NCBI GenBank assembly: GCA_040285855.1
Contig: JAUFOQ010000010.1
Span: forward strand, 930,001 to 994,000
Origin: Eukaryota sp. GEM-RC1
Taxonomy: Eukaryota
Direction of reading: 5' to 3'
DNA: 64,000 nucleotides
The translations under genes were made by a program, and so were the position numbers. Below, piece after piece: positions 27,351 to 64,000 of this stretch (its first letter is position 1; each line of letters starts with the position of its first letter). Under the pieces are notes generated by a model. The model did no database searches and was not told where the DNA came from. It was given only the letters and a program-made list of their open reading frames with translations.

Positions 27351-27403
27351 GTCTGCCTCATATTCTGAAGTTCATTTTTACTTCCAAACCAACTCACCCT
27401 CAA

Positions 27404-29582: not shown

Positions 29583-30767
29583 TTAGAAATAAATTCTGCT
29601 CTGGTGTAGTGATTTTAATGACTGTTGTGTTTGACTGTTGATTAAGTTCTTACGTATATAGATATCAGAAACAGATGAATTCACCGTTAAAGATTCGGCA
29701 ATTGCATTAGCACCTTCATTACCAATTGAGTTGTTAGATAGATCGATCCTAGAAACAGATGAATTCACCGTTAAAGATTCGGCAATTGCATTAGCACCTT
29801 CATTACCAATCGAGTTGTTACGTAGATCGATTGTAGAAACACAAGTATTCACCTTTAAAGCATCAGCAATTGCAATAGCGCCTTCAGAACCAATTGAGTT
29901 GATAAATAAATCGATTGTAGAAACAGAAGAATTCACCTTTAAAGCATCAGCAATTGCAATAGCGCCTTCAGAACCAATTGAGTTGTTACGTAGATCGATC
30001 CTAGAAACAGAAGAATTAACCTTTAAAGCTTCAGCAATTTCAATAGCGCCTTCAGAACCAATTGAGTTGTTCCATAGATTGATCTGAGAAACAGAAGAAT
30101 TGACCTTTAAAGCTTCAGCAATTGCAATAGCGCCTTCAGGACCAATTGAGTTGTTCCATAGATTGATCTGAGAAACAGAAGAATTCACCTTTAAAGCTTC
30201 AGCAATTGCAATAGCGCCTTCAGGACCAATTGAGTTGTTATAGAGACCGATAGTAGAAACAGATGAATTCACCTTTAAAGCTTCAGCAATTGCAATAGCG
30301 CCTTCAGGACCAATTGAGTTATTATCTAGATCGATCTCAGAACCCTCATTTCTCACCATCTCATCATAACAATTCTTCAACTTAGAGCTGAGCTTGCTCC
30401 AATCAATAACAAGTTTCTTCTCTTCAACTTGTTGTACAGGGCATAGACTTTCAATAGACTTGATTGGTAAAGGAGTGTCATCCAGAAGCCTAGCAGAAGC
30501 ACCACTGGACTCCGAATCAACGGCAACCCCTTCCTCACACTCAAAATAAATAGTCTCACCCTGACCAGCAACGAAGGCTTCAATAGCTTCTTTCAACTTG
30601 TAGTTAGGACACAGCCTTGACTTGTCCACTTCAGCTCGACAGATCGGACATCCGTCATGAGAATCAAGCCACTCCTGCAAATCCGACATACAAAATGTGT
30701 GACCACACCAAATAGTTACCGGATTCTTGAGAATTTCATGACAAATATAACAGATATAATGAGACAT
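29583..30767 (-). CDS. RING finger-LRR protein (9 LRRs); B-box-less paralog of 51184..53895
   Basis: CYICHE...CGHTFC..D...CPICR RING followed by 84-bp LRR modules and the same NSQTQQSLKSLH cap. Confidence 0.9.
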   Translation of the reverse strand: MSHYICYICHEILKNPVTIWCGHTFCMSDLQEWLDSHDGCPICRAEVDKSRLCPNYKLKEAIEAFVAGQGETIYFECEEGVAVDSESSGASARLLDDTPLPIKSIESLCPVQQVEEKKLVIDWSKLSSKLKNCYDEMVRNEGSEIDLDNNSIGPEGAIAIAEALKVNSSVSTIGLYNNSIGPEGAIAIAEALKVNSSVSQINLWNNSIGPEGAIAIAEALKVNSSVSQINLWNNSIGSEGAIEIAEALKVNSSVSRIDLRNNSIGSEGAIAIADALKVNSSVSTIDLFINSIGSEGAIAIADALKVNTCVSTIDLRNNSIGNEGANAIAESLTVNSSVSRIDLSNNSIGNEGANAIAESLTVNSSVSDIYIRKNLINSQTQQSLKSLHQSRIYF

Positions 30768-30782
30768 TTGAAGAAGAAAATA

Positions 30783-38421: not shown

Positions 38422-38662
38422 AACGTACTGACCAAATATAATTTTTGTCTTTTTCAATCAATGTGATGTTGATTAAATTTCGATCAAGTTTTTGGGTGGT
38501 AAGTAGGAATGGGAATTAAGTTTGTTCTTTAGATAATTTGTTTGAGTAACATCTATTCATATTTAGTTTTGTATTGTGGTGGATACACTATTGTCGTTTT
38601 GCTTTTTGGCGCAATTTAGGTTCTACTAAGTTCAGAATTTTGCTTCTCTCATAATTAGGTCA

Positions 38663-41493: not shown

Positions 41494-41505
41494 TCCTCAA
41501 CTAAA

Positions 41506-45197: not shown

Positions 45198-45610
45198 CAC
45201 TTTTAGTTTCTGAACTTTCCAAAGTAATACCACAATCTTTTTGATGTTTTGTGAATGATACTGATACTTTATCGATAAATGAGATTTGTTGTGTAGTCAT
45301 AAAGACCTTTGCTTTTTTGTAATGTCGAACAAACAACAGGCCCCTTGAGAATACGGTGAAAATGGTTCATGATTGAAAATTTTCAAACTGTTCCAAAGTT
45401 ATAAGGACGTTTAAATTGTTCTAACTATAGGATTAAGAGTGAAAATTCTATCTCATATTAAAAAATGACATTTAGTTCCAATTTGACAATGCCGTCTATA
45501 ACTGTTTATTCATCATTGAAGATTCTTCTCACTGGGATCGTGATGATCCTTGTCGTGCTGTCCTTAACTTAAAGAAAGATCTTCCCAAATTCTTCAAGAA
45601 ACTTGGCTAT

Positions 45611-46750
45611 ATGAGCGACCACTTCTTTGAGTCCTCTCTACTAGCAACGAAGGTGTTTTTCCAAACAAAAACGTTCCACGTTCTTCCAAAAGACCTGCCT
45701 CAACTCTCTTCACTTGCTTCTTTCTTTGAAGCAGATCCCAAGTCCATTTTTTTACACGTGGACAAGACCTTTAATGTTGAGGACTGGATTAGTTATTCTC
45801 CTATAATCTCAGGATTAGAATTGGATTTGAAAAGCCCTAATGACTTGGAGTTTGTCAATAACCCGTTTTTGTTCTTTCCACGTGTTAAAGAACTTCACTT
45901 GCGTATTCGTCGTTCTATTTCTATGGCATCCATCGAATCATTGAAGGCCAATACTACAGTTACAAGTATTAGTCTGAGGAACAACTCTATTAATGAAGAG
46001 GGCATTGCAGCTCTAGCAGAGTTGTTAAAAGTAAATACTACAATTAAAGGTATTAATCTATGGAAAAACTCTTTTCGAGCTGAAGGTGCTAAAGTGTTGG
46101 CACGTTCATTGAAAGTTAATAATACACTTACGAGTTGTAATGTGGGTTGTAACAATATTGGAGCTGAAGGTGCTAGAGAATTTGCAAAGACATTGAAGGT
46201 TAATAAGTCAGTTACAAGATTTAGTTTCTACAACACCTCACTCGGAGCTGAAGGTGTTAGAGCTCTTGCACAGTCCTTAAAAGTAAATACTACAATTACT
46301 ACTATTGATCTGGGAGTGAACTCGCTTGGACCTGAAGGTGCTGAAACTCTGGCAGAGGCGTTGATAGTAAATACTACAATTACAAGTATTGCTCTTGAAA
46401 CGAATTATATTGGACCTGAAGGTGCTGGAGCTCTGGCAAAAGCGTTAAAAGTTAATAATAAGGTTACATTTATTAATCTAAAGGGCAACTATATTGGAGT
46501 TGACGGTGCCAGTGCTTTAGCGGAGGCGTTGAAAGTTAATTCCAAAGTTACAACTATTGTGTTGACGGACAACTTTATTAAAGATGAAGGTGCCAGTGCT
46601 TTAGCAGAGGCGTTGAAAGTCAATAGTACAATTACATGTATTAATCTGAAGTTCAATTCAATTGGAGCTGAAGGTGGTAGAGCTTTGGCAGAAACATTAA
46701 AAGTTAATACCACGGTTGAAATTGAAGGAGTTAATTATCTTGATTTGTGA
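45611..46750 (+). CDS. 5'-truncated LRR family copy (9 LRRs); possibly a pseudogene
   Basis: Duplicate of the 38663 gene; the duplication begins mid-domain, and the first ATG is internal. Confidence 0.6.
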   Translation: MSDHFFESSLLATKVFFQTKTFHVLPKDLPQLSSLASFFEADPKSIFLHVDKTFNVEDWISYSPIISGLELDLKSPNDLEFVNNPFLFFPRVKELHLRIRRSISMASIESLKANTTVTSISLRNNSINEEGIAALAELLKVNTTIKGINLWKNSFRAEGAKVLARSLKVNNTLTSCNVGCNNIGAEGAREFAKTLKVNKSVTRFSFYNTSLGAEGVRALAQSLKVNTTITTIDLGVNSLGPEGAETLAEALIVNTTITSIALETNYIGPEGAGALAKALKVNNKVTFINLKGNYIGVDGASALAEALKVNSKVTTIVLTDNFIKDEGASALAEALKVNSTITCINLKFNSIGAEGGRALAETLKVNTTVEIEGVNYLDL

Positions 46751-47460
46751 TCATGAGTTTCATAGTTTACACTTAATAAATTGGATTTACTAGTATGTCT
46801 CTAATGCTTTTAATGTACTTCTTTAGTCAATGAAAGTGTAAAAACAAGTTTATAATACTACTGTTACACTTATTAGAAGAATGACCACCTCAAATAGACG
46901 CATTCCTTTTACTGTAACAGAGAACAGATTTACGGACGGGCTTCGTTGAAAAAAGACGAACCAGAATCAACAAAAATATTCCTTCATGGAATTATTGAAT
47001 CCAAGGTCTTTGAATAACATGATTAAATTTCGATGCGATGTTGTTGTCATCTCATCTACTGATTCTTTCATTATCTTGATTTTGCACAACACCATTTACT
47101 TGGTGTTGACTGTATATCAAAAGAGGACTCCAAAGATTAGAAGTGTTTATGTAGAGAACTTTATTTTGAGCCTATTATAATGTACAAATGATTCTTGGAA
47201 TATGGAGCAAATAAATGTTCAATTATACCTGGCAAATGTCATGCTTGCAACAGTTCACTGCATCTCAAATCAAAAGAGTACTTTAAAAAGCAGTTTTTTT
47301 CCAAGATTTCTGTCCAATAGTTTTGGCAAAGAAGAGTAATACCGTATGATAGACCATGTAGTCTTCCCAGACCCAGCAAGTCTACATGACGAAGCCTCTT
47401 GATCGCCTTGTTTCTACTACTTGTAGTAGGTGAAAATCATTTTGTATCTCCTCAACTAAA

Positions 47461-48840
47461 ATGTCTCAATATGAACTTCCGCAAAACAGTAGCCGCTCTT
47501 TAGATGATACCCTTTCAGTATCTGACGTTGTAGGGTGTCATGCCACTTCCTCTTCTGATATCTCATCTTCGAATCCTAGCTCTGATTCACCGTCCTCCGC
47601 ACGCTTCTCTTATGATCATCCTCCCAATAACTTGAATGTCCAACAATCTCTACTTGTTTTGATCCATCTTCACTTTCTTGGTGAGCGGTTGAAGTCTTCT
47701 CTCAAATGGATACATCATTCACTTCGTCGTCCTCTACATTGTTTCATGGAAGATTTGCTCAAATACTTTCAAAAAGTTGGCTACGTGAGCCCCCGTTTCT
47801 TTGAATCTGTTCATTTAGCAACCAAGGTGTTTTTCCAGAGAAACACGTTTCATGTTAACCCTAAAGATCTTCCTCAACTCTCTTCGGCTGCTTCTTTCTT
47901 TGGAGCAGAGCCAAAATCCATTTTCCTGCACATACAATGGACCTTTAAAGCTGGAGAATTTCTAAATTATTCACCTTCAATTTCAGGATTGGAATTACAT
48001 TTACGGTATCATAATGACTTGGAGTTTCTTAACAAGTCTTCCTTGTACTTTCCCCGTCTTAAGCAGCTTCATGTGTGTGTTCATGGTTCTATTTATGTGG
48101 CATTTATTGAATTGTTAAAGGATAATGCTACACTTACGAGTATTGACCTGAACTCCAACTGTCCTAAAGATGAAGGTGCTAGAGCTTTAGCAGAGGCTTT
48201 GAAAGTTAACACTTCAGTTACAAGTATTAATCTGAGGGGTAACTATATTGGTGATGAAGGTGCTAAAGCATTGGCAGAGCTGTTGAAAGTAAATACTTCA
48301 GTCACAAGTATTAATCTGTATGAAAATTGCATTGAATTTGAAGGTGCTAGAGCTTTGGCAGATGCGTTAAAAATTAATAATACAGTCACAAGTATTAATC
48401 TGTGGATGAACTATATTAAAACTACAGGTGCTAGAGCTTTGGCAGAGGCGTTAAAAATTAATAATACAGTCACAAGTATTAATCTGTGTGAAAACTGTAT
48501 CGGAGCCGAAGGTGCTAAAGCTCTGGCAGATGCCTTGAAAGTTAATTCCACATTTAGAAGTATTGATCTTGGTAAGAACTCAATTGGACCTGAAGGTGCT
48601 AGAGCTTTGGCAGATGCCTTGAAAGTTAATACGTCAGTTAAAAGTATTGATCTGCAATGGAATTGTATTGGGGATGTAGGTGCTAGAGCTTTGGCAGATG
48701 CTTTAAAATTTAATGATACTGTTACTAATGTTGACCTGTTTGCAAACTCTATTGGAGATGACGCTGTTAGAGCGTTGGCAGAGGTGTTGAAAGCTAATGA
48801 GAAAATTAAAATTAGTGGTGTAAGTCAACTTAATCTTTAG
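47461..48840 (+). CDS. Ser-leader LRR family protein (8 LRRs)
   Basis: Intact 459-aa ORF, duplicate of the 41506 gene. Confidence 0.88.
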   Translation: MSQYELPQNSSRSLDDTLSVSDVVGCHATSSSDISSSNPSSDSPSSARFSYDHPPNNLNVQQSLLVLIHLHFLGERLKSSLKWIHHSLRRPLHCFMEDLLKYFQKVGYVSPRFFESVHLATKVFFQRNTFHVNPKDLPQLSSAASFFGAEPKSIFLHIQWTFKAGEFLNYSPSISGLELHLRYHNDLEFLNKSSLYFPRLKQLHVCVHGSIYVAFIELLKDNATLTSIDLNSNCPKDEGARALAEALKVNTSVTSINLRGNYIGDEGAKALAELLKVNTSVTSINLYENCIEFEGARALADALKINNTVTSINLWMNYIKTTGARALAEALKINNTVTSINLCENCIGAEGAKALADALKVNSTFRSIDLGKNSIGPEGARALADALKVNTSVKSIDLQWNCIGDVGARALADALKFNDTVTNVDLFANSIGDDAVRALAEVLKANEKIKISGVSQLNL

Positions 48841-50101
48841 AACTTGACAATAAATTAAGAAATTAAATAACACCAACATTGTTTTAATCTTGTTGAGACT
48901 AATTATGTACTAAAAATCTATGCTTCAAGTACTCTTTGAACGAGTTTTGTATAATATACATTTTGTTTAATTAATTGAACGACAATGTGATCATGTTGAT
49001 ACAGTCACAACATTTAAAGGGTGGTCTATTACTAGTTTTCAATAGTCCCTTTGCGAATCATAAGCACTATTGACATGTTCTTCGAACTCAAAACATTAAA
49101 ATATCGATCTGATTGGATGTATCAGACAGGGATTAGTTACTTTTATCAATGTCTTTTAGGGACTCTCAAATGTATATAGCAACAATGCAATAATTCAATA
49201 CATTCGGTTTTGAACAACATTCTTTTCTCAAGTATTTCCTTCCAATCAGTATGAACTGCTACTGTGATATAATGCGTTCACCTTATACGGCTTCAATGGA
49301 TTGCAGATTTCACTCATCATATGCCACATATTTTACTGTAGTGTTGTTGTCAATAAATCTTGTCAATGGAAAAAATATGCCACATATTATCATATATTGA
49401 ATTTATTTTATTTAATAATATTCCAAAATATTCAGACAACCCAAGTGAATACAATAACATGCTAAAACTTGGAATAAACATTAAACAAAGTCAATTGAAT
49501 GTTGAGAGATAGTTATAGTTTGGAGTGATCTAGATTTTGGAACAGATAGTACTTCACAATATTCAAAAGATCTTCAAACTCTATAAAATCATTACTCAAA
49601 ATGACGTTTTACAAGTCCACTGCTACCTGAATTGGACTAATAACACCCTGGAAATCCTTACAAGACAATATAAAGCCACAAAAGTCACCAAAAGTCAAAG
49701 ATCTGTTTAACCTGATTAATTCACATAAATCAATGACTGACTTATTGGAGAAACAACAAATATTCAAAGTTAGTCTCTTGATTGTGAAACATTGAGACAA
49801 GGACTTTGGTTGTGACATTGCTTCATGTAGATATATTCCAAAACTTGGGTGACAAACAAATCACACATCATATTTACCTTGTGTGATATAACCCAAGGTA
49901 AATCTAGAAGGAGCGAATCAAAAGATTGTAACCGACCCAGGCTTGGTGAAGAAGCGCTTCATAGAAACAAATGTGTTGATATTAAAAATATGATGTATTA
50001 GAGATTTAAAGGTACCTCAAACTTTGATTCAGACACAGGGGTGATACTAATACATCATCGTAGTCACATTGTGGAAGTACATTATAAGTGTTTGGAGAAA
50101 G

Positions 50102-50216: not shown

Positions 50217-51183
50217 ATTCTTCCAAACAATATAAGAATTTCGGTAGTGTGACCTCCTGATTCAAGTACAGTCTACCCTCCCATTAGTGCAAGCTTTTGG
50301 GCAGACCTTAATGGGAGGTTTTGTTTGTACAGACATGAACAGCAGACGACAGCCTTTTATGATATATAAACCAACAAACTACGACTATTGTGCACCATTT
50401 GGTGATGAACTGAAGATGACACGGATAATCGTCGTTCAAATATAAGTGGTGGGATTGAGGGAAAATATTGCAGAACACTCAACCATCAGCAAACAGCAAT
50501 AATCTCTCAGATTTCTGCTAAATAGTTGAGGGAGAGAAGGGGAGAACTAACGGGGAGGGCGATAGAAGAGCGAGAAAGGTCAAGGACGGACCTGAAACTA
50601 CCAATATAGGAAAGGAGAAAGTTTCAGATACTCAAAGAGACAAATCACAGAGAACTTGTTCTGAGTTAGTAAGCAGAATTGAATATGTGAGGAGAAGAAC
50701 CCCTTCAAAGCATTGAGACGACAATAGCAGCATTAACATTGCCAGTGAAAAGTGTTCTTAAAGAATAGAATTCTACAGAAGGGATATGAAAAGATAGGGT
50801 AATTTATGCAAGAAGTACACACAGTCACACCTAAAATCGTATTCCCAAGATGACAACGAAAAGAGCCGATGATTGGTGTTGAACAAGGGTAGGCTCATGT
50901 CTTAAGTTTACCCTTTGTTTCTTTTGCTGCCTAAGAAACAATACACTCTGTTATCTGCTCTTTCTGAAAGTCAAAAATAAAAAACCAATGATCCCGGTTA
51001 AGCTAGATTGGATGTGTGTGATTGTTGCAAAGATAAGGTATCGATCCTGGCTTATATATGGTACTGTAACTGCTGGAAGAGGTTGAAAAAGAACCCGAAA
51101 AGGGAAAAAATTGTCGTGCGACAAAATGATGTCGGAGTTCTCCAGAATGAACTCTTCGATCTGAAGTCTATTTTCTTCCTCAA

Positions 51184-53895
51184 ATGTCTCACTATCTCTG
51201 TGATATTTGTCATGAAATTCTCAAGAATCCGGTAACTACTTGGTGTGGCCACACCTTTTGTATGTCGGACTTGCAGGAATGGCTTGTTTCTCATAACGGA
51301 TGTCCGATCTGTCGAGCTGAAGTGGACAAGTCAAGGCTGTGTCCTAACTACAAGTTGAAAGAAGCTGTTGAAGCCTTTGTTGCTGGTCAAGGTGAGACTA
51401 TTTGTTTTGAGTGTGATGAAGCTGCTGCCACTTGTTATTGCGCAGAATGTGACGCCGATTTCTGTGACAAATGTTTTAACCCTGCTCATCGCCCCAAGTT
51501 GCTACGATCTCATGTTGCTGTCCCCCTAAATAAGAAGCATGCCTACCTTATTCCCAAGTGCCCCAGCCACAGTATGAAGTCGTTAGAGTTGTTCTGCACC
51601 TTCTGCTCCGTCGCCCTTTGCTCCACTTGTGCTTTCCTTGGTGACCATGACCAACACAAAAAGAAGTTGCTTCCCTTTGACGAAGGTCGAACCTCTGTTG
51701 AAAAGAATATCAACTCAATTAATCAAGAGTTGTCGTTAGCCATTGAAAAAATATCTCAGTCAGCTGAAGCTGCTATCCAGCAAGCAACAAGTGGTTTTGT
51801 CCAACTCAAAGAAAGTCTGACTGTCCTGCTCCAAGAAACTATGTTGGACTCTGCTACCATTATGAATGACTTACAATCTGGGAAACCTGTCATGTTCAAG
51901 CCAAAGATCAGCGAGAAATTCACTACCACCACTTCAACCCTTCTCAACAACCAATCTGATATCATCTCCTCTTTAAATGAAGAACTTTTCTCCATCCACT
52001 CCGATGCTTCTCGTCGTTTGACCTCTCTTTCTGTTGATTCGGAATCTAGTGTTGCTTCTGCTAGGCTTCTAGAAGACCCTCCTTTACCAATCAAGTGCAT
52101 TGAAAGTGTCTGCCCTGTACAACAAGTTGAAGAGAAGAAACTTGTTATTGATTGGAGCAAGCTTAGCTCTAAGTTGAAGAGTTGTTATGATCAAATGGTG
52201 AGAAATGAGGTTTCTACGATCGATCTAGGTAACAACTCAATTGGTAATGAAGGCGCTATTGCAATTGCTGAAGCTTTGAAGGTGAATTCTTCACTTTCTA
52301 GAATCGATCTAGGTAACAACTCAATTGGTACTGAAGGCGCTATTGCAATTGCTGAAGCTTTGAAGGTGAATTCTTCACTTTCTAGAATCGATCTAGGTAA
52401 CAACTCAATTGGTACTGAAGGCGCTATTGCAATTGCTGAAGCTTTGAAGGTGAATTCTTCAGTTTCTACGATTTATCTACATATCAACTCAATTGGTCCT
52501 GAAGGCGCTATTGCAATTGCTGAAGCTTTGAAGGTGAATTCTTCAGTTTCTACGATTTATCTACATATCAACTCAATTGGTCCTGAAGGCGCTATTGCAA
52601 TTGCTGAAGCTTTAAAGGTGAATTCTTCAGTTTCTCAGATCGATCTACGTAACAACTCAATTGGTCCTGAAGGTGCTATTGCAATTGCTGAAGCTTTAAA
52701 GGTGAATTCTTCAGTTTCTCAGATCGATCTACGTAACAACTCAATTGGTCCTGAAGGTGCTATTGCAATTGCTGAAGCTTTAAAGGTGAATTCTTCAGTT
52801 TCTCAGATCGATCTACGTAACAACTCAATTGGTCCTGAAGGCGCTATTGCAATTGCTGAAGCTTTAAAGGTGAATTCTTCAGTTTCTCAGATCGATCTAC
52901 GTAACAACTCAATTGGTCCTGAAGGTGCTATTGCAATTGCTGAAGCTTTAAAGGTGAATTCTTCAGTTTCTCAGATCGATCTACGTAACAACTCAATTGG
53001 TCCTGAAGGTGCTATTGCAATTGCTGAAGCTTTAAAGGTGAATTCTTCAGTTTCTCAGATCGATCTATATAACAACTCAATTGGTCCTGAAGGCGCTATT
53101 GCAATTGCTGAAGCTTTAAAGGTGAATTCTTCAGTTTCTACGATTTATCTACATATCAACTCAATTGGTCCTGAAGGCGCTATTGCAATTGCTGAAGCTT
53201 TAAAGGTGAATTCTTCAGTTTCTCAGATCGATCTACGTAACAACTCAATTGGTCCTGAAGGTGCTATTGCAATTGCTGAAGCTTTAAAGGTGAATTCTTC
53301 AGTTTCTCAGATCGATCTACGTAACAACTCAATTGGTCCTGAAGGTGCTATTGCAATTGCTGAAGCTTTAAAGGTGAATTCTTCAGTTTCTCAGATCGAT
53401 CTACGTAACAACTCAATTGGTCCTGAAGGCGCTATTGCAATTGCTGAAGCTTTAAAGGTGAATTCTTCAGTTTCTCAGATCGATCTACGTAACAACTCAA
53501 TTGGTCCTGAAGGTGCTATTGCAATTGCTGAAGCTTTAAAGGTGAATTCTTCAGTTTCTCAGATCGATCTACGTAACAACTCAATTGGTCCTGAAGGTGC
53601 TATTGCAATTGCTGAAGCTTTAAAGGTGAATTCTTCAGTTTCTCAGATCGATCTATATAACAACTCAATTGGTCCTGAAGGCGCTATTGCAATTGCTGAA
53701 GCTTTAAAGGTGAATTCTTCAGTTTCTACGATTTATCTATCTAATAACTCAATTGGTCCTGAAGGTGCTATTGCAATTGCTGAAGCTTTGAAGGTGAATT
53801 CTTCAGTTTCTACGATTTATCTATCTAATAACTCAATTAACAGTCAAACACAACAGTCATTAAAATCACTGCATAAGAATAGACTTCGTTTCTAA
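51184..53895 (+). CDS. TRIM-like protein: RING, B-box1, B-box2, helical/coiled-coil region, 20 RI-like LRRs; putative E3 ubiquitin ligase
   Basis: CDICHE...CGHTFC...CPICR (RING); CFECDE...YCAECDADFCDKCF...H...H (B-box1); CPSH...LFCTFCSVALCSTC...DH..H (B-box2); 20 x 84-bp modules from ~52210. Confidence 0.93.
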   Translation: MSHYLCDICHEILKNPVTTWCGHTFCMSDLQEWLVSHNGCPICRAEVDKSRLCPNYKLKEAVEAFVAGQGETICFECDEAAATCYCAECDADFCDKCFNPAHRPKLLRSHVAVPLNKKHAYLIPKCPSHSMKSLELFCTFCSVALCSTCAFLGDHDQHKKKLLPFDEGRTSVEKNINSINQELSLAIEKISQSAEAAIQQATSGFVQLKESLTVLLQETMLDSATIMNDLQSGKPVMFKPKISEKFTTTTSTLLNNQSDIISSLNEELFSIHSDASRRLTSLSVDSESSVASARLLEDPPLPIKCIESVCPVQQVEEKKLVIDWSKLSSKLKSCYDQMVRNEVSTIDLGNNSIGNEGAIAIAEALKVNSSLSRIDLGNNSIGTEGAIAIAEALKVNSSLSRIDLGNNSIGTEGAIAIAEALKVNSSVSTIYLHINSIGPEGAIAIAEALKVNSSVSTIYLHINSIGPEGAIAIAEALKVNSSVSQIDLRNNSIGPEGAIAIAEALKVNSSVSQIDLRNNSIGPEGAIAIAEALKVNSSVSQIDLRNNSIGPEGAIAIAEALKVNSSVSQIDLRNNSIGPEGAIAIAEALKVNSSVSQIDLRNNSIGPEGAIAIAEALKVNSSVSQIDLYNNSIGPEGAIAIAEALKVNSSVSTIYLHINSIGPEGAIAIAEALKVNSSVSQIDLRNNSIGPEGAIAIAEALKVNSSVSQIDLRNNSIGPEGAIAIAEALKVNSSVSQIDLRNNSIGPEGAIAIAEALKVNSSVSQIDLRNNSIGPEGAIAIAEALKVNSSVSQIDLRNNSIGPEGAIAIAEALKVNSSVSQIDLYNNSIGPEGAIAIAEALKVNSSVSTIYLSNNSIGPEGAIAIAEALKVNSSVSTIYLSNNSINSQTQQSLKSLHKNRLRF

Positions 53896-54463
53896 AGATA
53901 TTTTCCTCTGATATAAAGATCACCCCATTATAAGTCACACATGAACAAATATCAATGCGGTTTAGCAGTTGTTCATACACAGATTGATTTTCAGTTTTAC
54001 CCGGTAATTAAGACTCGTCATATCGAAAAGTTCATTTGCTATTGTTTTCAACAACACCACGTATTAATTGGTATCTGGAAATGATGTAACATTATACTAT
54101 ACTATACTATTATACTTATGTTTCGAAATATTTCGAATCACCGACACATTGTCTCGTCATAAACACGGTTGTATTTTTTCTCAAAAAACAGCTTAATTGT
54201 CCTTGAGTTGAGTGATGCTTTGATTATTCTCAGTGATTTATAAGATGTACAGTATCCTTTTGTATCTATTCCATAGATATTTTAGTCATGGTAATTTATT
54301 AAATATTGGTCAAAATTAGGTTGTTCGTTAGATTCTGTTTTAGTGATCTGTGATTGAATTGGAAATCTGGTCACACAATTGTCTTAACATACAAAGTAGG
54401 TTTTTGTTTATCTTAAATTGAGTTTATTATCTAACATTATCTAAGCTTCTTTTTACTGGATAT

Positions 54464-54910
54464 GTGTTCTATGAACCGGCTAGAATTTCCGATTTCTATC
54501 TACATTACAACTCAAGTGGTCCTGAAGGCGCTATTGCAATTGCAGAAGCTTTGAAGGTGAATTCTTCAGTTTCTACGATCAATCTATATTACAACTCAAT
54601 TGGTCCTGAAGGTGCTATTGCAATTGCTGAAGCTTTAAAGGTGAATTCTTCAGTTTCTCAGATCGATCTACGTAACAACTCAATTGGTAATGATGGCGCT
54701 ATTGCAATTGCTGAAGCTTTAAAGGTGAATTCTTCAGTTTCTACGATTTATCTATCTAATAACTCAATTGGTCCTGAAGGTGCTATTGCAATTGCTGAAG
54801 CTTTGAAGGTGAATTCTTCAGTTTCTACGATTTATCTATCTAATAACTCAATTAACAGTCAAACACAACAGTCATTAAAATCACTGCATAAGAATAGACT
54901 TCGTTTCTAA
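54464..54910 (+). pseudogene. Headless LRR cassette 1 (5 modules)
   Basis: Open frame from a GTG, no in-frame ATG, same C-terminal cap as the main gene. Confidence 0.75.
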
Positions 54911-55478
54911 AGATATTTTCCTCTGATATAAAGATCACCCCATTATAAGTCACACATGAACAAATATCAATGCGGTTTAGCAGTTGTTCATACACAGATT
55001 GATTTTCAGTTTTACCCGGTAATTAAGACTCGTCATATCGAAAAGTTCATTTGCTATTGTTTTCAACAACACCACGTATTAATTGGTATCTGGAAATGAT
55101 GTAACATTATACTATACTATACTATTATACTTATGTTTCGAAATATTTCGAATCACCGACACATTGTCTCGTCATAAACACGGTTGTATTTTTTCTCAAA
55201 AAACAGCTTAATTGTCCTTGAGTTGAGTGATGCTTTGATTATTCTCAGTGATTTATAAGATGTACAGTATCCTTTTGTATCTATTCCATAGATATTTTAG
55301 TCATGGTAATTTATTAAATATTGGTCAAAATTAGGTTGTTCGTTAGATTCTGTTTTAGTGATCTGTGATTGAATTGGAAATCTGGTCACACAATTGTCTT
55401 AACATACAAAGTAGGTTTTTGTTTATCTTAAATTGAGTTTATTATCTAACATTATCTAAGCTTCTTTTTACTGGATAT

Positions 55479-56093
55479 GTGTTCTATGAACCGGCTAGAA
55501 TTTCCGATTTCTATCTACATTACAACTCAAGTGGTCCTGAAGGCGCTATTGCAATTGCAGAAGCTTTGAAGGTGAATTCTTCCGTTTCTACGATCAATCT
55601 ATTTAGCAACTCAATTGGTAATGAAGGCGCTATTGCAATTGCTGAAGCTTTAAAGGTGAATTCTTCAGTTTCTCAGATCGATCTACGTAACAACTCAATT
55701 GGTAATGATGGCGCTATTGCAATTGCTGAAGCTTTGAAGGTGAATTCTTCAGTTTCTACGATTTATCTACATATCAACTCAATTGGTAATGAAGGCGCTA
55801 TTGCAATTGCTGAAGCTTTAAAGGTGAATTCTTCAGTTTCTCAGATCGATCTATCTAATAACTCAATTGGTCCTGAAGGTGCTATTGCAATTGCTGAAGC
55901 TTTGAAGGTGAATTCTTCAGTTTCTACGATCAATCTATATTACAACTCAATTGGTCCTGAAGGTGCTATTGCAATTGCTGAAGCTTTAAAGGTGAATTCT
56001 TCAGTTTCTACGATTTATCTATCTAATAACTCAATTAACAGTCAAACACAACAGTCATTAAAATCACTGCATAAGAATAGACTTCGTTTCTAA
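55479..56093 (+). pseudogene. Headless LRR cassette 2 (7 modules)
   Basis: Same structure as cassette 1, different module series. Confidence 0.75.
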
Positions 56094-56661
56094 AGATATT
56101 TTCCTCTGATATAAAGATCACCCCATTATAAGTCACACATGAACAAATATCAATGCGGTTTAGCAGTTGTTCATACACAGATTGATTTTCAGTTTTACCC
56201 GGTAATTAAGACTCGTCATATCGAAAAGTTCATTTGCTATTGTTTTCAACAACACCACGTATTAATTGGTATCTGGAAATGATGTAACATTATACTATAC
56301 TATACTATTATACTTATGTTTCGAAATATTTCGAATCACCGACACATTGTCTCGTCATAAACACGGTTGTATTTTTTCTCAAAAAACAGCTTAATTGTCC
56401 TTGAGTTGAGTGATGCTTTGATTATTCTCAGTGATTTATAAGATGTACAGTATCCTTTTGTATCTATTCCATAGATATTTTAGTCATGGTAATTTATTAA
56501 ATATTGGTCAAAATTAGGTTGTTCGTTAGATTCTGTTTTAGTGATCTGTGATTGAATTGGAAATCTGGTCACACAATTGTCTTAACATACAAAGTAGGTT
56601 TTTGTTTATCTTAAATTGAGTTTATTATCTAACATTATCTAAGCTTCTTTTTACTGGATAT

Positions 56662-57444
56662 GTGTTCTATGAACCGGCTAGAATTTCCGATTTCTATCTA
56701 CATTACAACTCAAGTGGTCCTGAAGGCGCTATTGCAATTGCTGAAGCTTTGAAGGTGAATTCTTCAGTTTCTACGATCAATCTACATAGCAACTCAATTG
56801 GTCCTGAAGGCGCTACTGCAATTGCTGAAGCTTTGAAGGTGAATTCTTCAGTTTCTACGATCAATCTACATAGCAACTCAATTGGTCCTGAAGGCGCTAT
56901 TGCAATTGCTGAAGCTTTGAAGGTGAATTCTTCAGTTTCTACGATTTATCTATCTAATAACTCAATTGGTCCTGAAGGCGCTATTGCAATTGCTGAAGCT
57001 TTGAAGGTGAATTCTTCAGTTTCTACGATCAATCTAGGTAACAACTCAATTGGTCCTGAAGGCGCTACTGCAATTGCTGAAGCTTTGAAGGTGAATTCGT
57101 TTGTTTCTTCGATTTATCTATATAACAACTCAATTGGTCCTGAAGGCGCTATTGCAATTGCTGAAGCTTTAAAGGTGAATTCTTCAGTTTCTCAGATCGA
57201 TCTACGTAACAACTCAATTGGTAATGATGGCGCTATTGCAATTGCTGAAGCTTTGAAGGTGAATTCTTCAGTTTCTACGATCAATCTACATAGCAACTCA
57301 ATTGGTCCTGAAGGTGCTATTGCAATTGCTGAAGCTTTGAAGGTGAATTCTTCAGTTTCTACGATTTATCTACATAACAACTCAATTAACAGTCAAACAC
57401 AACAGTCATTAAAATCACTGCATAAGAATAGACTTCGTTTCTAA
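56662..57444 (+). pseudogene. Headless LRR cassette 3 (9 modules)
   Basis: Same structure as cassette 1, different module series. Confidence 0.75.
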
Positions 57445-57995
57445 AGATATTTTCCTCTGATATAAAGATCACCCCATTATAAGTCACACATGAACAAATA
57501 TCAATGCGGTTTAGCAGTTGTTCATACACAGATTGATTTTCAGTTTTACCCGGTAATTAAGACTCGTCATATCGAAAAGTTCATTTGCTATTGTTTTCAA
57601 CAACACCACGTATTAATTGGTATCTGGAAATGATGTAACATTATACTATATGTTTCGAAATATTTCGAATCACCGACACATTGTCTCGTCATAAACACGG
57701 TTGTATTTTTTCTCAAAAAACAGCTTAATTGTCCTTGAGTTGAGTGATGCTTTGATTATTCTCAGTGATTTATAAGATGTACAGTATCCTTTTGTATCTA
57801 TTCCATAGATATTTTAGTCATGGTAATTTCTTAAATATTGGTCAAAATTAGGTTGTTCGTTAGTTTCTGTTTTAGTGATCTGTGATTTAATTGGAAATCT
57901 TGTCACACAATTGTCTTAACATACAAAGCAGGTTTTTGTTTATCTTAAATTGAGTTTATTATCTAACATTATCTAAGCTTCTGTTTACTGGATAT

Positions 57996-58693
57996 GTGTT
58001 CTATGAACCGGCTAGAATTTCCGATTTCTATCTACATTACAATAAATTGGTAAAGAAGGCGCTATTGCAATTGCTGAAGCTTTGAAGGTGAATTCGTCTG
58101 TTTCTACGATTGGTCTAGGTAACAACTCAATTGGTCCTGAAGGCGCTACTGCAATTGCTGAAGCTTTGAAGGTGAATTCGTTTGTTTCTTCGATTTATCT
58201 ATATAACAACTCAATTGGTCCTGAAGGCGCTATTGCAATTGCTGAAGCTTTAAAGGTGAATTCTTCAGTTTCTCAGATCGATCTACGTAACAACTCAATT
58301 GGTCCTGAAGGCGCTATTGCAATTGCTGAAGCTTTAAAGGTGAATTCTTCAGTTTCTCAGATCGATCTACGTAACAACTCAATTGGTAATGATGGCGCTA
58401 TTGCAATTGCTGAAGCTTTGAAGGTGAATTCTTCAGTTTCTACGATTTATCTACATATCAACTCAATTGGTAATGAAGGTGCTATTGCAATTGCTGAAGC
58501 TTTAAAGGTGAATTCTTCAGTTTCTACGATTTATCTACATAGCAACTCAATTGGTCCTGAAGGTGCTATTGCAATTGCTGAAGCTTTGAAGGTGAATTCT
58601 TCAGTTTCTACGATTTATCTATCTAATAACTCAATTAACAGTCAAACACAACAGTCATTAAAATCACTGCATAAGAATAGACTTCGTTTCTAA
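57996..58693 (+). pseudogene. Headless LRR cassette 4 (8 modules; 1-nt deletion in the first module)
   Basis: CATTACAATAAATTGGT replaces CATTACAACTCAATTGGT near 58040. Confidence 0.78.
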
Positions 58694-59261
58694 AGATATT
58701 TTCCTCTGATATAAAGATCACCCCATTATAAGTCACACATGAACAAATATCAATGCGGTTTAGCAGTTGTTCATACACAGATTGATTTTCAGTTTTACCC
58801 GGTAATTAAGACTCGTCATATCGAAAAGTTCATTTGCTATTGTTTTCAACAACACCACGTATTAATTGGTATCTGGAAATGATGTAACATTATACTATAC
58901 TATACTATTATACTTATGTTTCGAAATATTTCGAATCACCGACACATTGTCTCGTCATAAACACGGTTGTATTTTTTCTCAAAAAACAGCTTAATTGTCC
59001 TTGAGTTGAGTGATGCTTTGATTATTCTCAGTGATTTATAAGATGTACAGTATCCTTTTGTATCTATTCCATAGATATTTTAGTCATGGTAATTTATTAA
59101 ATATTGGTCAAAATTAGGTTGTTCGTTAGTTTCTGTTTTAGTGATCTGTGATTTAATTGGAAATCTTGTCACACAATTGTCTTAACATACAAAGTAGGTT
59201 TTTGTTTATCTTAAATTGAGTTTATTATCTAACATTATCTAAGCTTCTGTTTACTGGATAT

Positions 59262-59792
59262 GTGTTCTATGAACCGGCTAGAATTTCCGATTTCTATCTA
59301 CATTACAACTCAAGTGGTCCTGAAGGCGCTACTGCAATTGCTGAAGCTTTGAAGGTGAATTCTTCAGTTTCTACGATCAATCTAGGTAACAACTCAATTG
59401 GTCCTGAAGGCGCTACTGCAATTGCTGAAGCTTTGAAGGTGAATTCTTCAGTTTCTACGATCAATCTACATAGCAACTCAATTGGTCCTGAAGGCGCTAT
59501 TGCAATTGCTGAAGCTTTGAAGGTGAATTCTTCAGTTTCTACGATTTATCTATATAACAACTCAATTGGTCCTGAAGGCGCTATTTCAATTGCTGAAGCT
59601 TTGAAGGTGAATTCGTCTGTTTCTACGATTGGTCTAGGTAACAACTCAATTGGTCCTGAAGGTGCTATTGCAATTGCTGAAGCTTTGAAGGTGAATTCTT
59701 CAGTTTCTACGATTTATCTATCTAATAACTCAATTAACAGTCAAACACAACAATCATTAAAATCACTGCACAAGAATAGAATTCGTTTCTAA
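59262..59792 (+). pseudogene. Headless LRR cassette 5 (6 modules)
   Basis: Same structure; the cap switches from RLRF to RIRF. Confidence 0.75.
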
Positions 59793-60342
59793 AGATATTT
59801 TCCTCTGATATAAAGATCACCCCATTATAAGTTACACATGAACAAATATCAAAGCAGGTTAGCAGTTGATCTTACACAGATTGATTTTCAGTTTTACCCG
59901 GTAATTAAGATTCGTCATATCGAAAAGTTCATTTGCTATTGTTTTCAACAACACCACGTATTAATTGGTATCTGGAAATGATGTAAAATTATTCTTTTGT
60001 TTTGAAATATTTCGAATCACCGACACAATGTCTCGTTATTAACACGGTTGTATTTTTTCTCAAAAAACAGCTTAATTGTCGTTGAGTTGAGTGAGGCTTT
60101 GATTATTCTCAGTGATTTATAAGATGTACAGTATCCTTTTGTATCTATTCCATAGATATTTTAGTCATGGTAATTTATTAAATATTGGTCAAAATTAGGT
60201 TGTTCGTTAGATTCTGTTTTAGTGATCTGTGATTGAATTGGAAATCTGGTCACACAATTGTCTTAACATACAAAGTAGGTTTTTGTTTATCTTAAATTGA
60301 GTTTATTATCTAACATTATCTAAGCTTCTTTTTACTGGATAT

Positions 60343-61377
60343 GTGTTCTATGAACCGGCTAGAATTTCCGATTTCTATCTACATTACAACTCAATTGGTA
60401 AAGAAGGCGCTATTGCAATTGCTGAAGCTTTGAAGGTGAATTCGTCTGTTTCTACGATTGGTCTAGGTAACAACTCAATTGGTCCTGAAGGCGCTACTGC
60501 AATTGCTGAAGCTTTGAAGGTGAATTCTTCAGTTTCTACGATCAATCTACATAGCAACTCAATTGGTCCTGAAGGTGCTATTGCAATTGCTGAAGCTTTG
60601 AAGGTGAATTCTTCAGTTTATCAGATCGATCTACGTAACAACTCAATTGATAATGAAGGCGCTATTGCAATTGCTGAAGCTTTGAAGGTGAATTCTTCAG
60701 TTTCTACGATTTATCTACATATCAACTCAATTGGTAATGAAGGCGCTATTGCAATTGCTGAAGCTTTGAAGGTGAATTCTTCAGTTTCTCAGATCGATCT
60801 ACGTAACAACTCAATTGATAATGAAGGTGCTATTGCAATTGCTGAAGCTTTGAAGGTGAATTCTTCAGTTTCTACGATTTATCTACATATCAACTCAATT
60901 GGTAATGAAGGCGCTATTGCAATTGCTCAAGCTTTGAAGGTGAATTCTTCAGTTTCTACGATTTATCTACATAGCAACTCAATTGGTCCTGAAGGCGCTA
61001 TTGCAATTGCTGAAGCTTTAAAGGTGAATTCTTCAGTTTCTCAGATCGATCTACGTAACAACTCAATTGATAATGAAGGCGCTATTGCAATTGCTGAAGC
61101 TTTGAAGGTGAATTCTTCAGTTTCTACGATTTATCTATCTAATAACTCAATTGGTCCTGAAGGCGCTATTGCAATTGCTGAAGCTTTGAAGGTGAATTCT
61201 TCAGTTTCTACGATTTATCTATCTAATAACTCAATTGGTCCTGAAGGTGCTATTGCAATTGCTGAAGCTTTGAAGGTGAATTCTTCAGTTTCTACGATTT
61301 ATCTATCTAATAACTCAATTAACAGTCAAACACAACAATCATTAAAATCACTGCACAAGAATAGAATTCGTTTCTAA
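60343..61377 (+). pseudogene. Headless LRR cassette 6 (12 modules)
   Basis: Same structure; contains SIDNEG variants. Confidence 0.75.
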
Positions 61378-61928
61378 AGATATTTTCCTCTGATATAAAG
61401 ATCACCCCATTATAAGTTACACATGAACAAATATCAAAGCAGGTTAGCAGTTGATCTTACACAGATTGATTTTCAGTTTTACCCGGTAATTAAGATTCGT
61501 CATATCGAAAAGTTCATTTGCTATTGTTTTCAACAACACCACGTATTAATTGGTATCTGGAAATGATGTAAAATTATTCTTTTTGTTTTGAAATATTTCG
61601 AATCACCGACACAATGTCTCGTTATTAACACGGTTGTATTTTTTCTCAAAAAACAGCTTAATTGTCGTTGAGTTGAGTGAGGCTTTGATTATTCTCAGTG
61701 ATTTATAAGATGTACAGTATCCTTTTGTATCTATTCCATAGATATTTTAGTCATGGTAATTTATTAAATATTGGTCAAAATTAGGTTGTTCGTTAGATTC
61801 TGTTTTAGTGATCTGTGATTGAATTGGAAATCTGGTCACACAATTGTCTTAACATACAAAGTAGGTTTTTGTTTATCTTAAATTGAGTTTATTATCTAAC
61901 ATTATCTAAGCTTCTTTTTACTGGATAT

Positions 61929-62543
61929 GTGTTCTATGAACCGGCTAGAATTTCCGATTTCTATCTACATTACAACTCAAGTGGTCCTGGAGGCGCTATT
62001 GCAATTGCTGAAGCTTTGAAGGTGAATTCTTCAGTTTCTACGATCAATCTACATAGCAACTCAATTGGTCCTGAAGGCGCTACTGCAATTGCTGAAGCTT
62101 TGAAGGTGAATTCTTCAGTTTCTACGATTTATCTATCTAATAACTCAATTGGTCCTGAAGGCGCTATTGCAATTGCTGAAGCTTTGAAGGTGAATTCTTC
62201 AGTTTCTACGATTTATCTATCTAATAACTCAATTGGTCCTGAAGGCGCTATTGCAATTGCTGAAGCTTTGAAGGTGAATTCTTCAGTTTCTACGATTTAT
62301 CTATCTAATAACTCAATTGGTCCTGAAGGTGCTATTGCAATTGCTGAAGCTTTGAAGGTGAATTCTTCAGTTTCTACGATTTATCTACATAGCAACTCAA
62401 TTGGTCCTGAAGGTGCTATTGCAATTGCTGAAGCTTTGAAGGTGAATTCTTCAGTTTCTACGATTTATCTATCTAATAACTCAATTAACAGTCAAACACA
62501 ACAATCATTAAAATCACTGCACAAGAATAGAATTCGTTTCTAA
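61929..62543 (+). pseudogene. Headless LRR cassette 7 (7 modules)
   Basis: Same structure as the other cassettes. Confidence 0.75.
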
Positions 62544-63093
62544 AGATATTTTCCTCTGATATAAAGATCACCCCATTATAAGTTACACATGAACAAATAT
62601 CAAAGCAGGTTAGCAGTTGATCTTACACAGATTGATTTTCAGTTTTACCCGGTAATTAAGATTCGTCATATCGAAAAGTTCATTTGCTATTGTTTTCAAC
62701 AACACCACGTATTAATTGGTATCTGGAAATGATGTAAAATTATTCTTTTGTTTTGAAATATTTCGAATCACCGACACAATGTCTCGTTATTAACACGGTT
62801 GTATTTTTTCTCAAAAAACAGCTTAATTGTCGTTGAGTTGAGTGAGGCTTTGATTATTCTCAGTGATTTATAAGATGTACAGTATCCTTTTGTATCTATT
62901 CCATAGATATTTTAGTCATGGTAATTTATTAAATATTGGTCAAAATTAGGTTGTTCGTTAGATTCTGTTTTAGTGATCTGTGATTGAATTGGAAATCTGG
63001 TCACACAATTGTCTTAACATACAAAGTAGGTTTTTGTTTATCTTAAATTGAGTTTATTATCTAACATTATCTAAGCTTCTTTTTACTGGATAT

Positions 63094-63540
63094 GTGTTCT
63101 ATGAACCGGCTAGAATTTCCGATTTCTATCTACATTACAACTCAAGTGGTCCTGAAGGCGCTATTGCAATTGCTGAAGCTTTGAAGGTGAATTCTTCAGT
63201 TTCTACGATCAATCTACATAGCAACTCAATTGGTCCTGAAGGCGCTACTGCAATTGCTGAAGCTTTGAAGGTGAATTCTTCAGTTTCTACGATCAATCTA
63301 CATAGCAACTCAATTGGTCCTGAAGGCGCTATTGCAATTGCTGAAGCTTTGAAGGTGAATTCTTCAGTTTCTACGATTTATCTATCTAATAACTCAATTG
63401 GTCCTGAAGGTGCTATTGCAATTGCTGAAGCTTTGAAGGTGAATTCTTCAGTTTCTACGATTTATCTATCTAATAACTCAATTAACAGTCAAACACAACA
63501 ATCATTAAAATCACTGCACAAGAATAGAATTCGTTTCTAA
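63094..63540 (+). pseudogene. Headless LRR cassette 8 (5 modules)
   Basis: Same structure as the other cassettes. Confidence 0.75.
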
Positions 63541-64000
63541 AGATATTTTCCTCTGATATAAAGATCACCCCATTATAAGTTACACATGAACAAATATCAA
63601 AGCAGGTTAGCAGTTGATCTTACACAGATTGATTTTCAGTTTTACCCGGTAATTAAGATTCGTCATATCGAAAAGTTCATTTGCTATTGTTTTCAACAAC
63701 ACCACGTATTAATTGGTATCTGGAAATGATGTAAAATTATTCTTTTGTTTTGAAATATTTCGAATCACCGACACAATGTCTCGTTATTAACACGGTTGTA
63801 TTTTTTCTCAAAAAACAGCTTAATTGTCGTTGAGTTGAGTGAGGCTTTGATTATTCTCAGTGATTTATAAGATGTACAGTATCCTTTTGTATCTATTCCA
63901 TAGATATTTTAGTCATGGTAATTTATTAAATATTGGTCAAAATTAGGTTGTTCGTTAGATTCTGTTTTAGTGATCTGTGATTTAATTGGAAATCTGGTCA

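What the first reader, a model, noticed from the sequence alone, without database searches (positions are those of the whole stretch)
51184..64000. TRIM-like RING/B-box/LRR gene followed by an archive of at least 8 headless, combinatorially different LRR cassettes: candidate diversifying receptor/E3-ligase system
Seen: one complete gene with 20 LRR modules is followed, in the same orientation, by eight cassettes with 59 modules in total. Each cassette holds only LRR modules, the same C-terminal cap and the same 3' flank. None has an in-frame ATG, RING or B-box. The spacers are nearly identical, yet no two cassettes share a module series. The cassettes carry many specificity variants absent from the full gene (TINLYY, TINLFS, TINLHS, TINLGN, TIGLGN, SIYLYN, QIDLSN, TIYLHS, TIYLYN). 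Established: one expression locus plus silent donor cassettes is the logic of Borrelia vlsE/vls, chicken pseudo-V gene conversion and agnathan VLR assembly, and TRIM proteins couple a C-terminal recognition domain to ubiquitination. Inference: gene conversion, or a deletion between a module of the gene and a module of any cassette, would put a new in-frame LRR surface on the same RING/B-box head and keep the same 3' end. That would make a programmable intracellular recognition system in a unicellular eukaryote.
Basis: partly seen in the sequence, partly recalled or inferred. Interest (0 to 1): 0.92.

Follow-up and report, generated by a model that had tools for sequence, protein, structure and literature searches.

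The report
TRIM-like gene with spare LRR cassettes
A gene for a TRIM-type protein, predicted to be a ubiquitin ligase with a hypervariable leucine-rich-repeat binding surface and likely from a free-living anaerobic protist, is followed by at least eight headless copies of its repeat region that likely arose by ordinary duplication and would let recombination swap in new binding surfaces, though no such swap has been seen.

Summary
The layout is real. A 903-aa RING/B-box1/B-box2/coiled-coil gene with 20 ribonuclease-inhibitor-type LRR modules of 84 bp is followed by eight ATG-less copies of its 3' end (59 modules), and the array runs off the window. Exposed LRR codons show excess amino-acid change (crude dN/dS about 3.4, p about 0.004), and all 1020 modelled gene-to-cassette crossovers stay in frame.

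The vls/VLR reading (one expression site, dedicated donors) is not shown. The gene belongs to a multigene family of a skoliomonad metamonad (7 of 26 retrieved models are complete head+LRR genes). Five of six cassette-only exposed residues also occur in those relatives. Widespread cassette alleles are absent from the gene (22 of 42 vs 0 of 8 distinct modules). The open cassette frames carry no signal of selection. No reads, RNA or second strain were available.

Best reading: a repeat-shuffling, likely defence-type receptor family, like fungal high-internal-conservation NLRs, where a 3' tandem duplication built a passive, usable module reservoir. A selected, fast-switching archive remains possible (about 0.2). 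One other family gene model (head + six differing LRR units) hints that the layout recurs. A two-B-box TRIM head on an LRR sensor in a metamonad was not found in my literature searches.

The parts
51184..53895 (+). Complete single-ORF gene, 903 aa: RING - B-box1 - B-box2 - coiled coil - linker - 20 LRR modules incl. cap
   Evidence: the Atlas holds the 903-aa sequence as such
51199..51312 (+). RING finger, ligands C6 C9 C21 H23 C26 D29 C40 C43 (sixth ligand Asp; His in relatives P0003, P0019)
51403..51657 (+). B-box1 (C74-H110) and B-box2 (C126-H158)
   Evidence: Pfam zf-B_box 2 stretches; MID1 B1B2 and TRIM28 RBCC hits; ligand list
51676..52029 (+). Long helix (res 165-231) plus return helix (244-282), coiled-coil-like
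   Evidence: AlphaFold2, pLDDT 73-90 in these helices, model overall 53
52210..53895 (+). LRR array of the gene: 19 body modules + cap, 84-bp period, 96% matches; exact 588-bp internal duplication (52546-53133 = 53134-53721)
   Evidence: ribonuclease-inhibitor fold
53896..54484 (+). Spacer 1 = 3' flank of the gene, repeated before every cassette; mosaic haplotype blocks
54485..54910 (+). Cassette 1 (5 modules incl. junction module and NRLRF cap)
55500..56093 (+). Cassette 2 (7 modules, NRLRF cap)
56683..57444 (+). Cassette 3 (9 modules, NRLRF cap)
58017..58693 (+). Cassette 4 (8 modules; 1-nt deletion and stop in junction module)
59283..59792 (+). Cassette 5 (6 modules, NRIRF cap)
60364..61377 (+). 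Cassette 6 (12 modules, NRIRF cap)
61950..62543 (+). Cassette 7 (7 modules, NRIRF cap)
63115..63540 (+). Cassette 8 (5 modules, NRIRF cap)
63541..64000 (+). Ninth spacer, cut by the window end; the array probably continues
29583..30767 (-). Paralog: same RING, B-boxes and coiled coil deleted, 8 LRR body modules + cap, different 3' flank, no cassettes

Best explanation
The gene encodes a TRIM-type RING/B-box/B-box/coiled-coil protein with a ribonuclease-inhibitor-type LRR domain that likely binds variable, probably foreign targets and likely ubiquitinates them, and the eight headless cassettes are likely a tandem duplication of its 3' end, amplified and reshuffled by unequal crossing-over, that would act as a passive reservoir of LRR modules. 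SHOWN: domain layout; 84-bp repeats 89-96% alike; variation concentrated on strand/loop codons 3, 5, 7 and 8; one fixed junction shared by all cassettes; mosaic spacers; in-frame geometry; membership of a multigene family. INFERRED: (1) one crossover joined an LRR module to an LRR-like 27-nt stretch about 590 bp past the stop and made the first unit; (2) ordinary homologous recombination expands and contracts the array and shuffles modules; (3) selection on expressed family genes created the exposed-site alleles, which the cassettes inherited or imported; (4) an occasional crossover or conversion returns modules to the gene, mostly at its 3' end, with no dedicated switching machinery; (5) E3 and defence function by analogy.
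For: Family context: 26 named GEM-RC1 models retrieved, 7 with RING+B-box2+LRR, each with its own series. Exposed-site dN/dS 3.4 (all modules) and 3.7 (cassettes), p about 0.004. Modules match at 96% in the gene vs 68-76% in the unrelated LRR genes next door. Recombination marks: 7 four-gamete violations over 6 codon pairs; spacers are patchworks of a 19-SNP block and a 4-7-SNP block; modules identical across cap/spacer types; exact 588-bp duplication in the gene. The gene's 3' end is identical to c1 over 888 nt and to c2 over 753 nt. Three gene hexamers (QIDLRN, TIYLHI, TIYLSN) occur in cassettes but in none of 127 modules of relatives, which points to a locus-wide pool. Five of six cassette-only exposed residues occur in relatives. 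Precedent: intact repeats at Podospora NWD pseudogenes through concerted evolution (PMC1805685, passages).
Against: No direct trace of return flow: 5 of 43 cassette modules equal a gene module vs 25 of 43 equal to one in another cassette, which also fits inert debris. The dN/dS excess inside the cassettes is the signature used to argue that vls cassettes are selected (PMC3828179, passages). Model P0034 (head + 6 differing units) suggests recurrence, which could mean selection. The origin of the junction module is unexplained: likeness to a module is only p about 0.02-0.05 vs shuffles, and a relic-gene source was not found. No expression, read or population data.
Confidence: 0.5

Rival explanations
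1. Selected donor archive (vls-like): the cassettes are kept by selection as silent donors, and frequent, directional conversion or deletion puts new LRR series on the RBCC head within a clonal lineage.
For: 1020 of 1020 modelled crossovers are open and give 742 series vs 281 from the gene alone. Exposed-site dN/dS is 3.7 within cassettes. All 43 body modules are open, and the only frameshift is in a junction module. Module order does not differ from random (P 0.28 and 0.17, low power). Models P0034 and P0032 show head + several differing LRR units at other loci.
Against: At least 7 other complete genes exist, so there is no single expression site. Alleles N5, S8, T17 and D14 (chosen after the fact) are in 22 of 42 distinct cassette modules and 0 of 8 gene modules; nearest-neighbour clustering of the gene P=0.023, not significant after 9 tests, and c6 gives P=0.03 too. 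The gene has recently diversified by self-duplication. Framework dN/dS 0.56 (p=0.21); no-stop probability 0.68. In-frame products follow from the 84-bp period alone. The P0034 and P0032 units may be whole genes stitched by the gene predictor.
Confidence: 0.2
2. Inert debris: a young minisatellite-like expansion of a gene tail. Flow runs only from gene or paralogs to cassettes, and the array does nothing.
For: No in-frame ATG. Framework changes at sites invariant in 108 relative modules, e.g. G12D in three modules of c6. Whole-gene tandem duplications lie nearby (38.8-43.3 kb vs 45.5-49.3 kb). Many family models are truncated. The in-window paralog has no cassettes.
Against: Identity of the gene's 3' end with c1/c2 over 750-890 nt and shared locus-specific modules mean crossovers with the gene are expected, and each crossover that duplicates the gene's tail has a reciprocal product with a cassette tail on the head (inference).
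Confidence: 0.15
3. Expressed parts: the cassettes are alternative last exons spliced to the head, or are translated as free LRR decoys.
For: A GTGAGA donor at 52198 (phase 0, at the head/LRR boundary) and a CTAAC...AAG acceptor 39 nt before each junction would give open 492-688-aa proteins for 7 of 8 cassettes; 0.6% of shuffles give such an acceptor, pattern chosen after the fact. Three relatives are annotated as headless LRR proteins starting MNSSI.
Against: The signals differ from the fused branch-point/3' site of fornicate and parabasalid introns (PMC6679479, passages) and from the one convincing intron-like element in the window (GTATGT...ACTAACCACAG at 2689). The donor overlaps a coding motif shared by relatives (MVRNE). 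No protein of 285-2000 aa containing the junction scored (weak). The 903-aa single ORF is on record.
Confidence: 0.08
4. Assembly or polishing artefact: the array or its module mosaics were created or scrambled by assembly of near-identical repeats.
For: Short-read assembly makes chimeric repeats in such genes (PMC12222747, passages). Published skoliomonad assemblies were Nanopore-built and Illumina-polished (PMC11316075, section 6). Four family models break at the same A-run. Spacers 6 and 7 differ by one T in a run.
Against: Eight different unit lengths (997-1585 bp), coherent SNP blocks in spacers, variants on the same codons that vary in relatives, one indel in 79 modules. Long reads recover such arrays (PMC12222747). 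Polishing could still account for some module mosaics and the exact 588-bp duplication.
Confidence: 0.07

Closest known systems
Podospora NWD/HNWD NLRs with high-internal-conservation WD40 repeats (PMC1805685; PMC12222747)
   Same: Multigene intracellular sensor family; near-identical tandem repeat units; four codons per repeat under diversifying selection; repeat gain, loss and shuffling by unequal crossover; non-coding loci keep intact repeats.
   Different: Here the effector is a RING/B-box/coiled-coil head, not NACHT/HET; the repeats are RI-type LRRs; the non-coding repeats form an ordered tandem array of headless 3' copies right behind the gene; no function is known.
Ectocarpus ROCO/NB-ARC LRR exon shuffling (PMC3341825)
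   Same: Non-coding LRR units next to coding ones, proposed as a reservoir; positive selection on exposed LRR residues; somatic switching proposed, not shown.
   Different: There each LRR is a 72-nt exon inside introns; here modules are intronless 84-nt repeats and the spare ones lie downstream of the stop, each set with its own cap.
Borrelia vlsE/vls silent cassettes (PMC3828179)
   Same: Complete gene beside in-frame, start-less cassettes; dN>dS in variable positions of the cassettes.
   Different: vls has one expression site and proven fast one-way conversion; here there are many complete paralogs, no shown conversion, and the product is a predicted intracellular ligase, not a surface antigen.
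TRIM/RBCC E3 ligases (TRIM28, MID1, TRIM3 hits; survey PMC3503706)
   Same: RING, B-box1, B-box2 and long helix in order at the N terminus, with a C-terminal recognition domain.
   Different: The C-terminal domain is an LRR solenoid; the sixth RING ligand is Asp; non-animal TRIMs in the 2012 survey are one-B-box, MATH-type subfamily A proteins.
Agnathan VLR assembly (recalled; also mentioned in PMC3341825) and Tetrahymena 90-bp-exon LRR genes (PMC6564038, abstract only)
   Same: LRR modules as the unit of diversification; unequal crossing-over proposed in Tetrahymena.
   Different: VLR starts from an incomplete germline gene and needs a deaminase (recalled); here the gene is complete and no such enzyme was seen among the long ORFs listed for the window. 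Tetrahymena modules are exons.

Membership tests
TRIM/RBCC | N-terminal RING finger | tested here: met
   Pfam zf-C3HC4/U-box, res 4-68, E down to 8e-10; sixth ligand is Asp29
TRIM/RBCC | One or two B-boxes directly after the RING | tested here: met
   zf-B_box 2 stretches; MID1 B1B2 match over 72-160; ligand spacing fits the recalled B1 and B2 consensus
TRIM/RBCC | Coiled coil after B-box2 | tested here: met
   Helices 165-231 and 244-282; TRIM28 RBCC best PDB hit, profile positions 39-213, E 1e-11
TRIM/RBCC | Coiled-coil dimer and E3 ligase activity | not tested
   No complex prediction run; activity needs an assay
Silent-cassette antigenic variation (vlsE type) | Single expression locus | tested here: not met
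   7 of 26 retrieved family models are complete RING+B-box2+LRR genes; which are expressed is unknown
Silent-cassette antigenic variation (vlsE type) | Cassettes lack a start and keep the reading frame | tested here: met
   No Met in 8 of 8 ORFs; 43 of 43 body modules open; one frameshift in a junction module
Silent-cassette antigenic variation (vlsE type) | Cassettes are not transcribed or translated | not testable with these tools
   No RNA data could be laid on the locus
Silent-cassette antigenic variation (vlsE type) | Diversifying selection acting on the cassettes themselves | tested here: inconclusive
   Exposed-site dN/dS 3.7, but 5 of 6 such residues are shared with family relatives; framework not significant
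Silent-cassette antigenic variation (vlsE type) | Frequent one-way cassette-to-gene conversion | tested here: inconclusive
   One haplotype only; cassette-wide alleles absent from the gene, 0 of 8 vs 22 of 42
High-internal-conservation repeat sensors (fungal NWD type; works-like claim) | Near-identical tandem repeats with a few hypervariable exposed codons | tested here: met
   89-96% repeat matches; codons 3, 5, 7, 8; codons 3-5 on the beta strand
High-internal-conservation repeat sensors (fungal NWD type; works-like claim) | Exchange of repeats within and between loci | tested here: inconclusive
   Within locus: supported. Between loci: only protein-level sharing of 4 of 10 cassette-only hexamers
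NLR (STAND) | NACHT/NB-ARC nucleotide-binding domain | tested here: not met
   No such Pfam match in the 903-aa protein
Agnathan VLR | Incomplete germline gene completed by somatic assembly | tested here: not met
   The gene is a complete ORF with 20 modules

The most novel reading that the evidence does not exclude
A free-living metamonad keeps ordered archives of silent LRR cassettes behind TRIM-like E3 ligase genes, at this and other loci, and selection maintains them so that recombination rapidly re-targets ubiquitination to new intracellular invaders: an anticipatory, heritable recognition repertoire in a single-celled eukaryote.
Probability: 0.2. Interest if true: 0.9.

Novelty: new variant of a known kind. 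Interest (0 to 1): 0.62.

Why it matters
How free-living protists recognise viruses or intracellular bacteria is largely open. This locus offers a compact test. It has a TRIM-type ligase head, best known from animal antiviral defence (recalled), fused to a repeat surface under diversifying selection, and about 10 kb of spare modules marked by private SNPs. One long-read amplicon experiment would show whether spare modules move onto the head, which would directly test the reservoir idea proposed but not shown for brown algae and suspected for fungal NLRs. Separately, two-B-box RBCC proteins in skoliomonads extend TRIM-like proteins beyond the one-B-box MATH type reported outside animals in the 2012 survey.

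Tried and rejected
No whole genome is held. No sequencing run was listed, and no RNA holder was listed; this is no evidence either way. Metagenome scans found nothing: LRR pattern 0 matches, head alignment 0 of 215 candidates confirmed. Viral contigs: 0 of 42 confirmed. The junction peptide was not found in proteins of 285-2000 aa (8 candidates, none scored); other lengths were not searched. The idea that the spacer is a decayed copy of the neighbouring FPRL-type LRR family started from a tblastn hint at E 0.04 and was rejected: no nhmmer hit with a profile of 10 such genes. No Rfam match in 48.9-56 kb. Adjacent-module permutation test not significant. The Fisher test of N/S at variable vs framework codons was not significant (p 0.06-0.28); the significant figure is the per-site binomial test on the six x positions; both are crude counts that ignore recombination. 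The AlphaFold model of the head is poor for the zinc domains (mean pLDDT 53). Earlier scan findings: none returned. Literature searches. None listed a TRIM-LRR gene with downstream cassettes; one search gave 0 papers. The library lacks most subscription papers. One supplement of PMC11316075 was a scan and could not be searched; the other 6 hold no 'intron' or 'LRR'.

Full report
Observation. The gene (51184-53895, 903 aa) and eight downstream cassettes are present as described. Each repeated unit is LRR modules + cap + about 590 bp of the gene's own 3' flank + one fixed junction module (ISDFYLHYNS), 997-1585 bp long. Module counts are 20 for the gene and 5, 7, 9, 8, 6, 12, 7, 5 for the cassettes. 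No cassette ORF holds a Met.

The protein. Pfam gives RING/U-box, two B-boxes and LRR_6. The best solved relatives of the head are TRIM28 RBCC, MID1 B-boxes and TRIM3, and the model has the two long helices expected after B-box2 (zinc domains poorly modelled). The LRR part folds confidently (pLDDT 84) into a 28-residue strand-helix solenoid whose top Foldseek matches are ribonuclease inhibitors, a kinetoplastid axonemal LRR protein and NLRP LRRs. Module codons 3-5 form the strand. That this strand lines the binding face, and that TRIMs ubiquitinate what their C-terminal domain binds, is established knowledge (recalled); neither was tested here.

Lineage and family. All close homologues (50-98% identity) are named proteins of Eukaryota sp. 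GEM-RC1. I take this label to be Skoliomonas sp. GEMRC, a free-living anaerobic metamonad (PMC11316075: abstract, section 6, passages and supplement search). I therefore read the window as skoliomonad-like. Of 26 retrieved family models, 7 are complete RING+B-box2+LRR genes, each with its own module series; the rest are head-only, tail-only or have another tail. A paralog in the window (29583-30767) has lost its B-boxes and has no cassettes. More distant RBCC proteins occur in GEM-RC1 and TZLM1-RC (10 looked up). Of 150 proteins scanned (145 from the best 150 of 4512 representative hits, plus 5 cluster members), only one, again from GEM-RC1, carried this LRR type. The ESM Atlas lists clusters that combine B-box and LRR_4 at score 0.84, a lead only, so B-box+LRR is probably not unique in nature. 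In the TRIM survey PMC3503706 (three passages) non-animal TRIMs are subfamily A, with one B-box and MATH, and the word leucine does not occur.

Variation. Codons 3, 5, 7 and 8 carry 4-6 alleles each; most framework codons are invariant. Over the six x positions of the LRR motif, a crude minimum-change count gives dN/dS 3.4 for all modules and 3.7 for cassettes (binomial p about 0.004); the framework gives 0.54-0.56, not distinguishable from neutral. A Fisher comparison of the same counts was not significant. Of six exposed-site residues found in cassettes but not in the gene, five occur in relatives, as do 4 of 10 cassette-only hexamers. The selection that made these alleles may therefore have acted in expressed genes. 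Open frames are uninformative: about 12 private changes give a 0.68 chance of no stop.

History of the array. Spacers 1-3 are identical. Spacers 6-9 differ from them by one 19-SNP block spanning the cap and the first 320 bp but match them in the rest (apart from one SNP in spacer 9); spacers 4-5 carry another block. Units with identical flanks have different module series, so modules rearrange faster than flanks mutate (inference). The gene shares a derived cap residue (L; 0 of 13 caps in relatives) with c1-c4 and is identical to c1 over 888 nt around its stop. QIDLRN, TIYLHI and TIYLSN occur in gene and cassettes but in none of 127 modules of relatives. The array thus descends from, or exchanges with, this gene. 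But cassettes resemble each other more than the gene (25 vs 5 of 43 identical modules). Four alleles that are each spread over 4-7 cassettes are missing from all 8 distinct gene modules (chosen after the fact; clustering P=0.023 uncorrected). The gene's first three modules are the furthest from any cassette (4-6 nt). This fits slow, 3'-biased exchange rather than frequent overwriting.

Mechanism. Because all modules are 84 nt in one frame and every cassette ends in a cap and stop, any in-register crossover gives an open gene (1020 of 1020; 742 series vs 281 from the gene alone). This is geometry, not proof of use. I judge a passive but usable reservoir built by unequal crossing-over most likely (0.5). 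It works like the Podospora NWD repeat pool, where pseudogenes keep intact repeats (PMC1805685, passages; PMC12222747, passages and Discussion), and like the reservoir proposed for Ectocarpus (PMC3341825, passages). A selected vls-like archive (PMC3828179, passages) gets 0.2, inert debris 0.15, spliced or translated cassettes 0.08, artefact 0.07.

Recurrence. Gene model P0034 is one head followed by six linker-LRR-cap units with related but different series; P0032 has three units. These may be the same layout with another breakpoint, or whole-gene tandems that the predictor stitched together.

Splicing rival. A phase-0 donor at the head/LRR boundary and an acceptor 39 nt before each junction would give open proteins of family-typical length for 7 of 8 cassettes. 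The signals do not match the fused branch-point/3' site of related metamonads (PMC6679479, passages) or the intron-like element at 2689, so I rate it low. Skoliomonad intron consensus was not found in print.

Limits. Polishing could have scrambled some module alleles. Verdict: a real and unusual locus, a new variant of repeat-shuffling receptor families; programmed switching not shown. Interest 0.62.

Noticed in passing
proteins P0034, P0032: Family gene models with one RBCC head and six or three linker-LRR units of differing series; possibly the same head + copies layout at other loci.
   Followed up: partly
proteins P0025, P0026, P0036; window 51147-51164: Three headless family models start MNSSI, the same five codons as a short upstream ORF in front of this gene; possibly a microhomology deletion of the head that leaves a free LRR gene with its own start.
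   Followed up: partly
proteins P0029, P0030, P0031, P0033: Four near-identical heads end after a frameshift at the same A-run (intact in this window): a shared pseudogenising change or a homopolymer error.
   Followed up: no
window 1-554 (-), 13228-14340, 19702-21042, 27302-28728, 32035-32823, 34614-36230, 38630-48840: About 12 genes or fragments of a second, more diverged LRR family with a Ser-rich N terminus and an FPRL motif; several are broken; only LRR_6 is recognised by Pfam.
   Followed up: partly
window 38803-43300 vs 45510-49255: Recent tandem duplication of a two-gene block, 96-97% identical over its two best matches.
   Followed up: no
window 2439-2717 (+): 83-codon ORF whose motifs recall CRESS-DNA virus Rep motifs I and II (recalled; no Pfam or PDB support), ending at a 29-nt intron-like element GTATGT...ACTAACCACAG of fornicate type.
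   Followed up: partly
window 30778-30870: An inverted repeat of about 30 bp just upstream of the RING-LRR paralog's start, replacing the sequence found upstream of the main gene.
   Followed up: no
window 28999-29070 (-); 3914-5374 (-), 7551-8027 (-); 5544-7256 (+); 9197-9760 (-); 37458-38378 (+): tRNA-Asp; a BTB gene and a partial copy; a five-RRM protein; a SWIM-finger fragment, perhaps a MULE relic; and an unassigned ORF that looks like a retroelement C terminus (recalled).
   Followed up: no
proteins P0038, P0039, P0040, P0041, P0045, P0046, P0051: Skoliomonads GEM-RC1 and TZLM1-RC encode further B-box (mostly RING+B-box) proteins without this LRR tail: a lineage-wide TRIM-like expansion.
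   Followed up: partly
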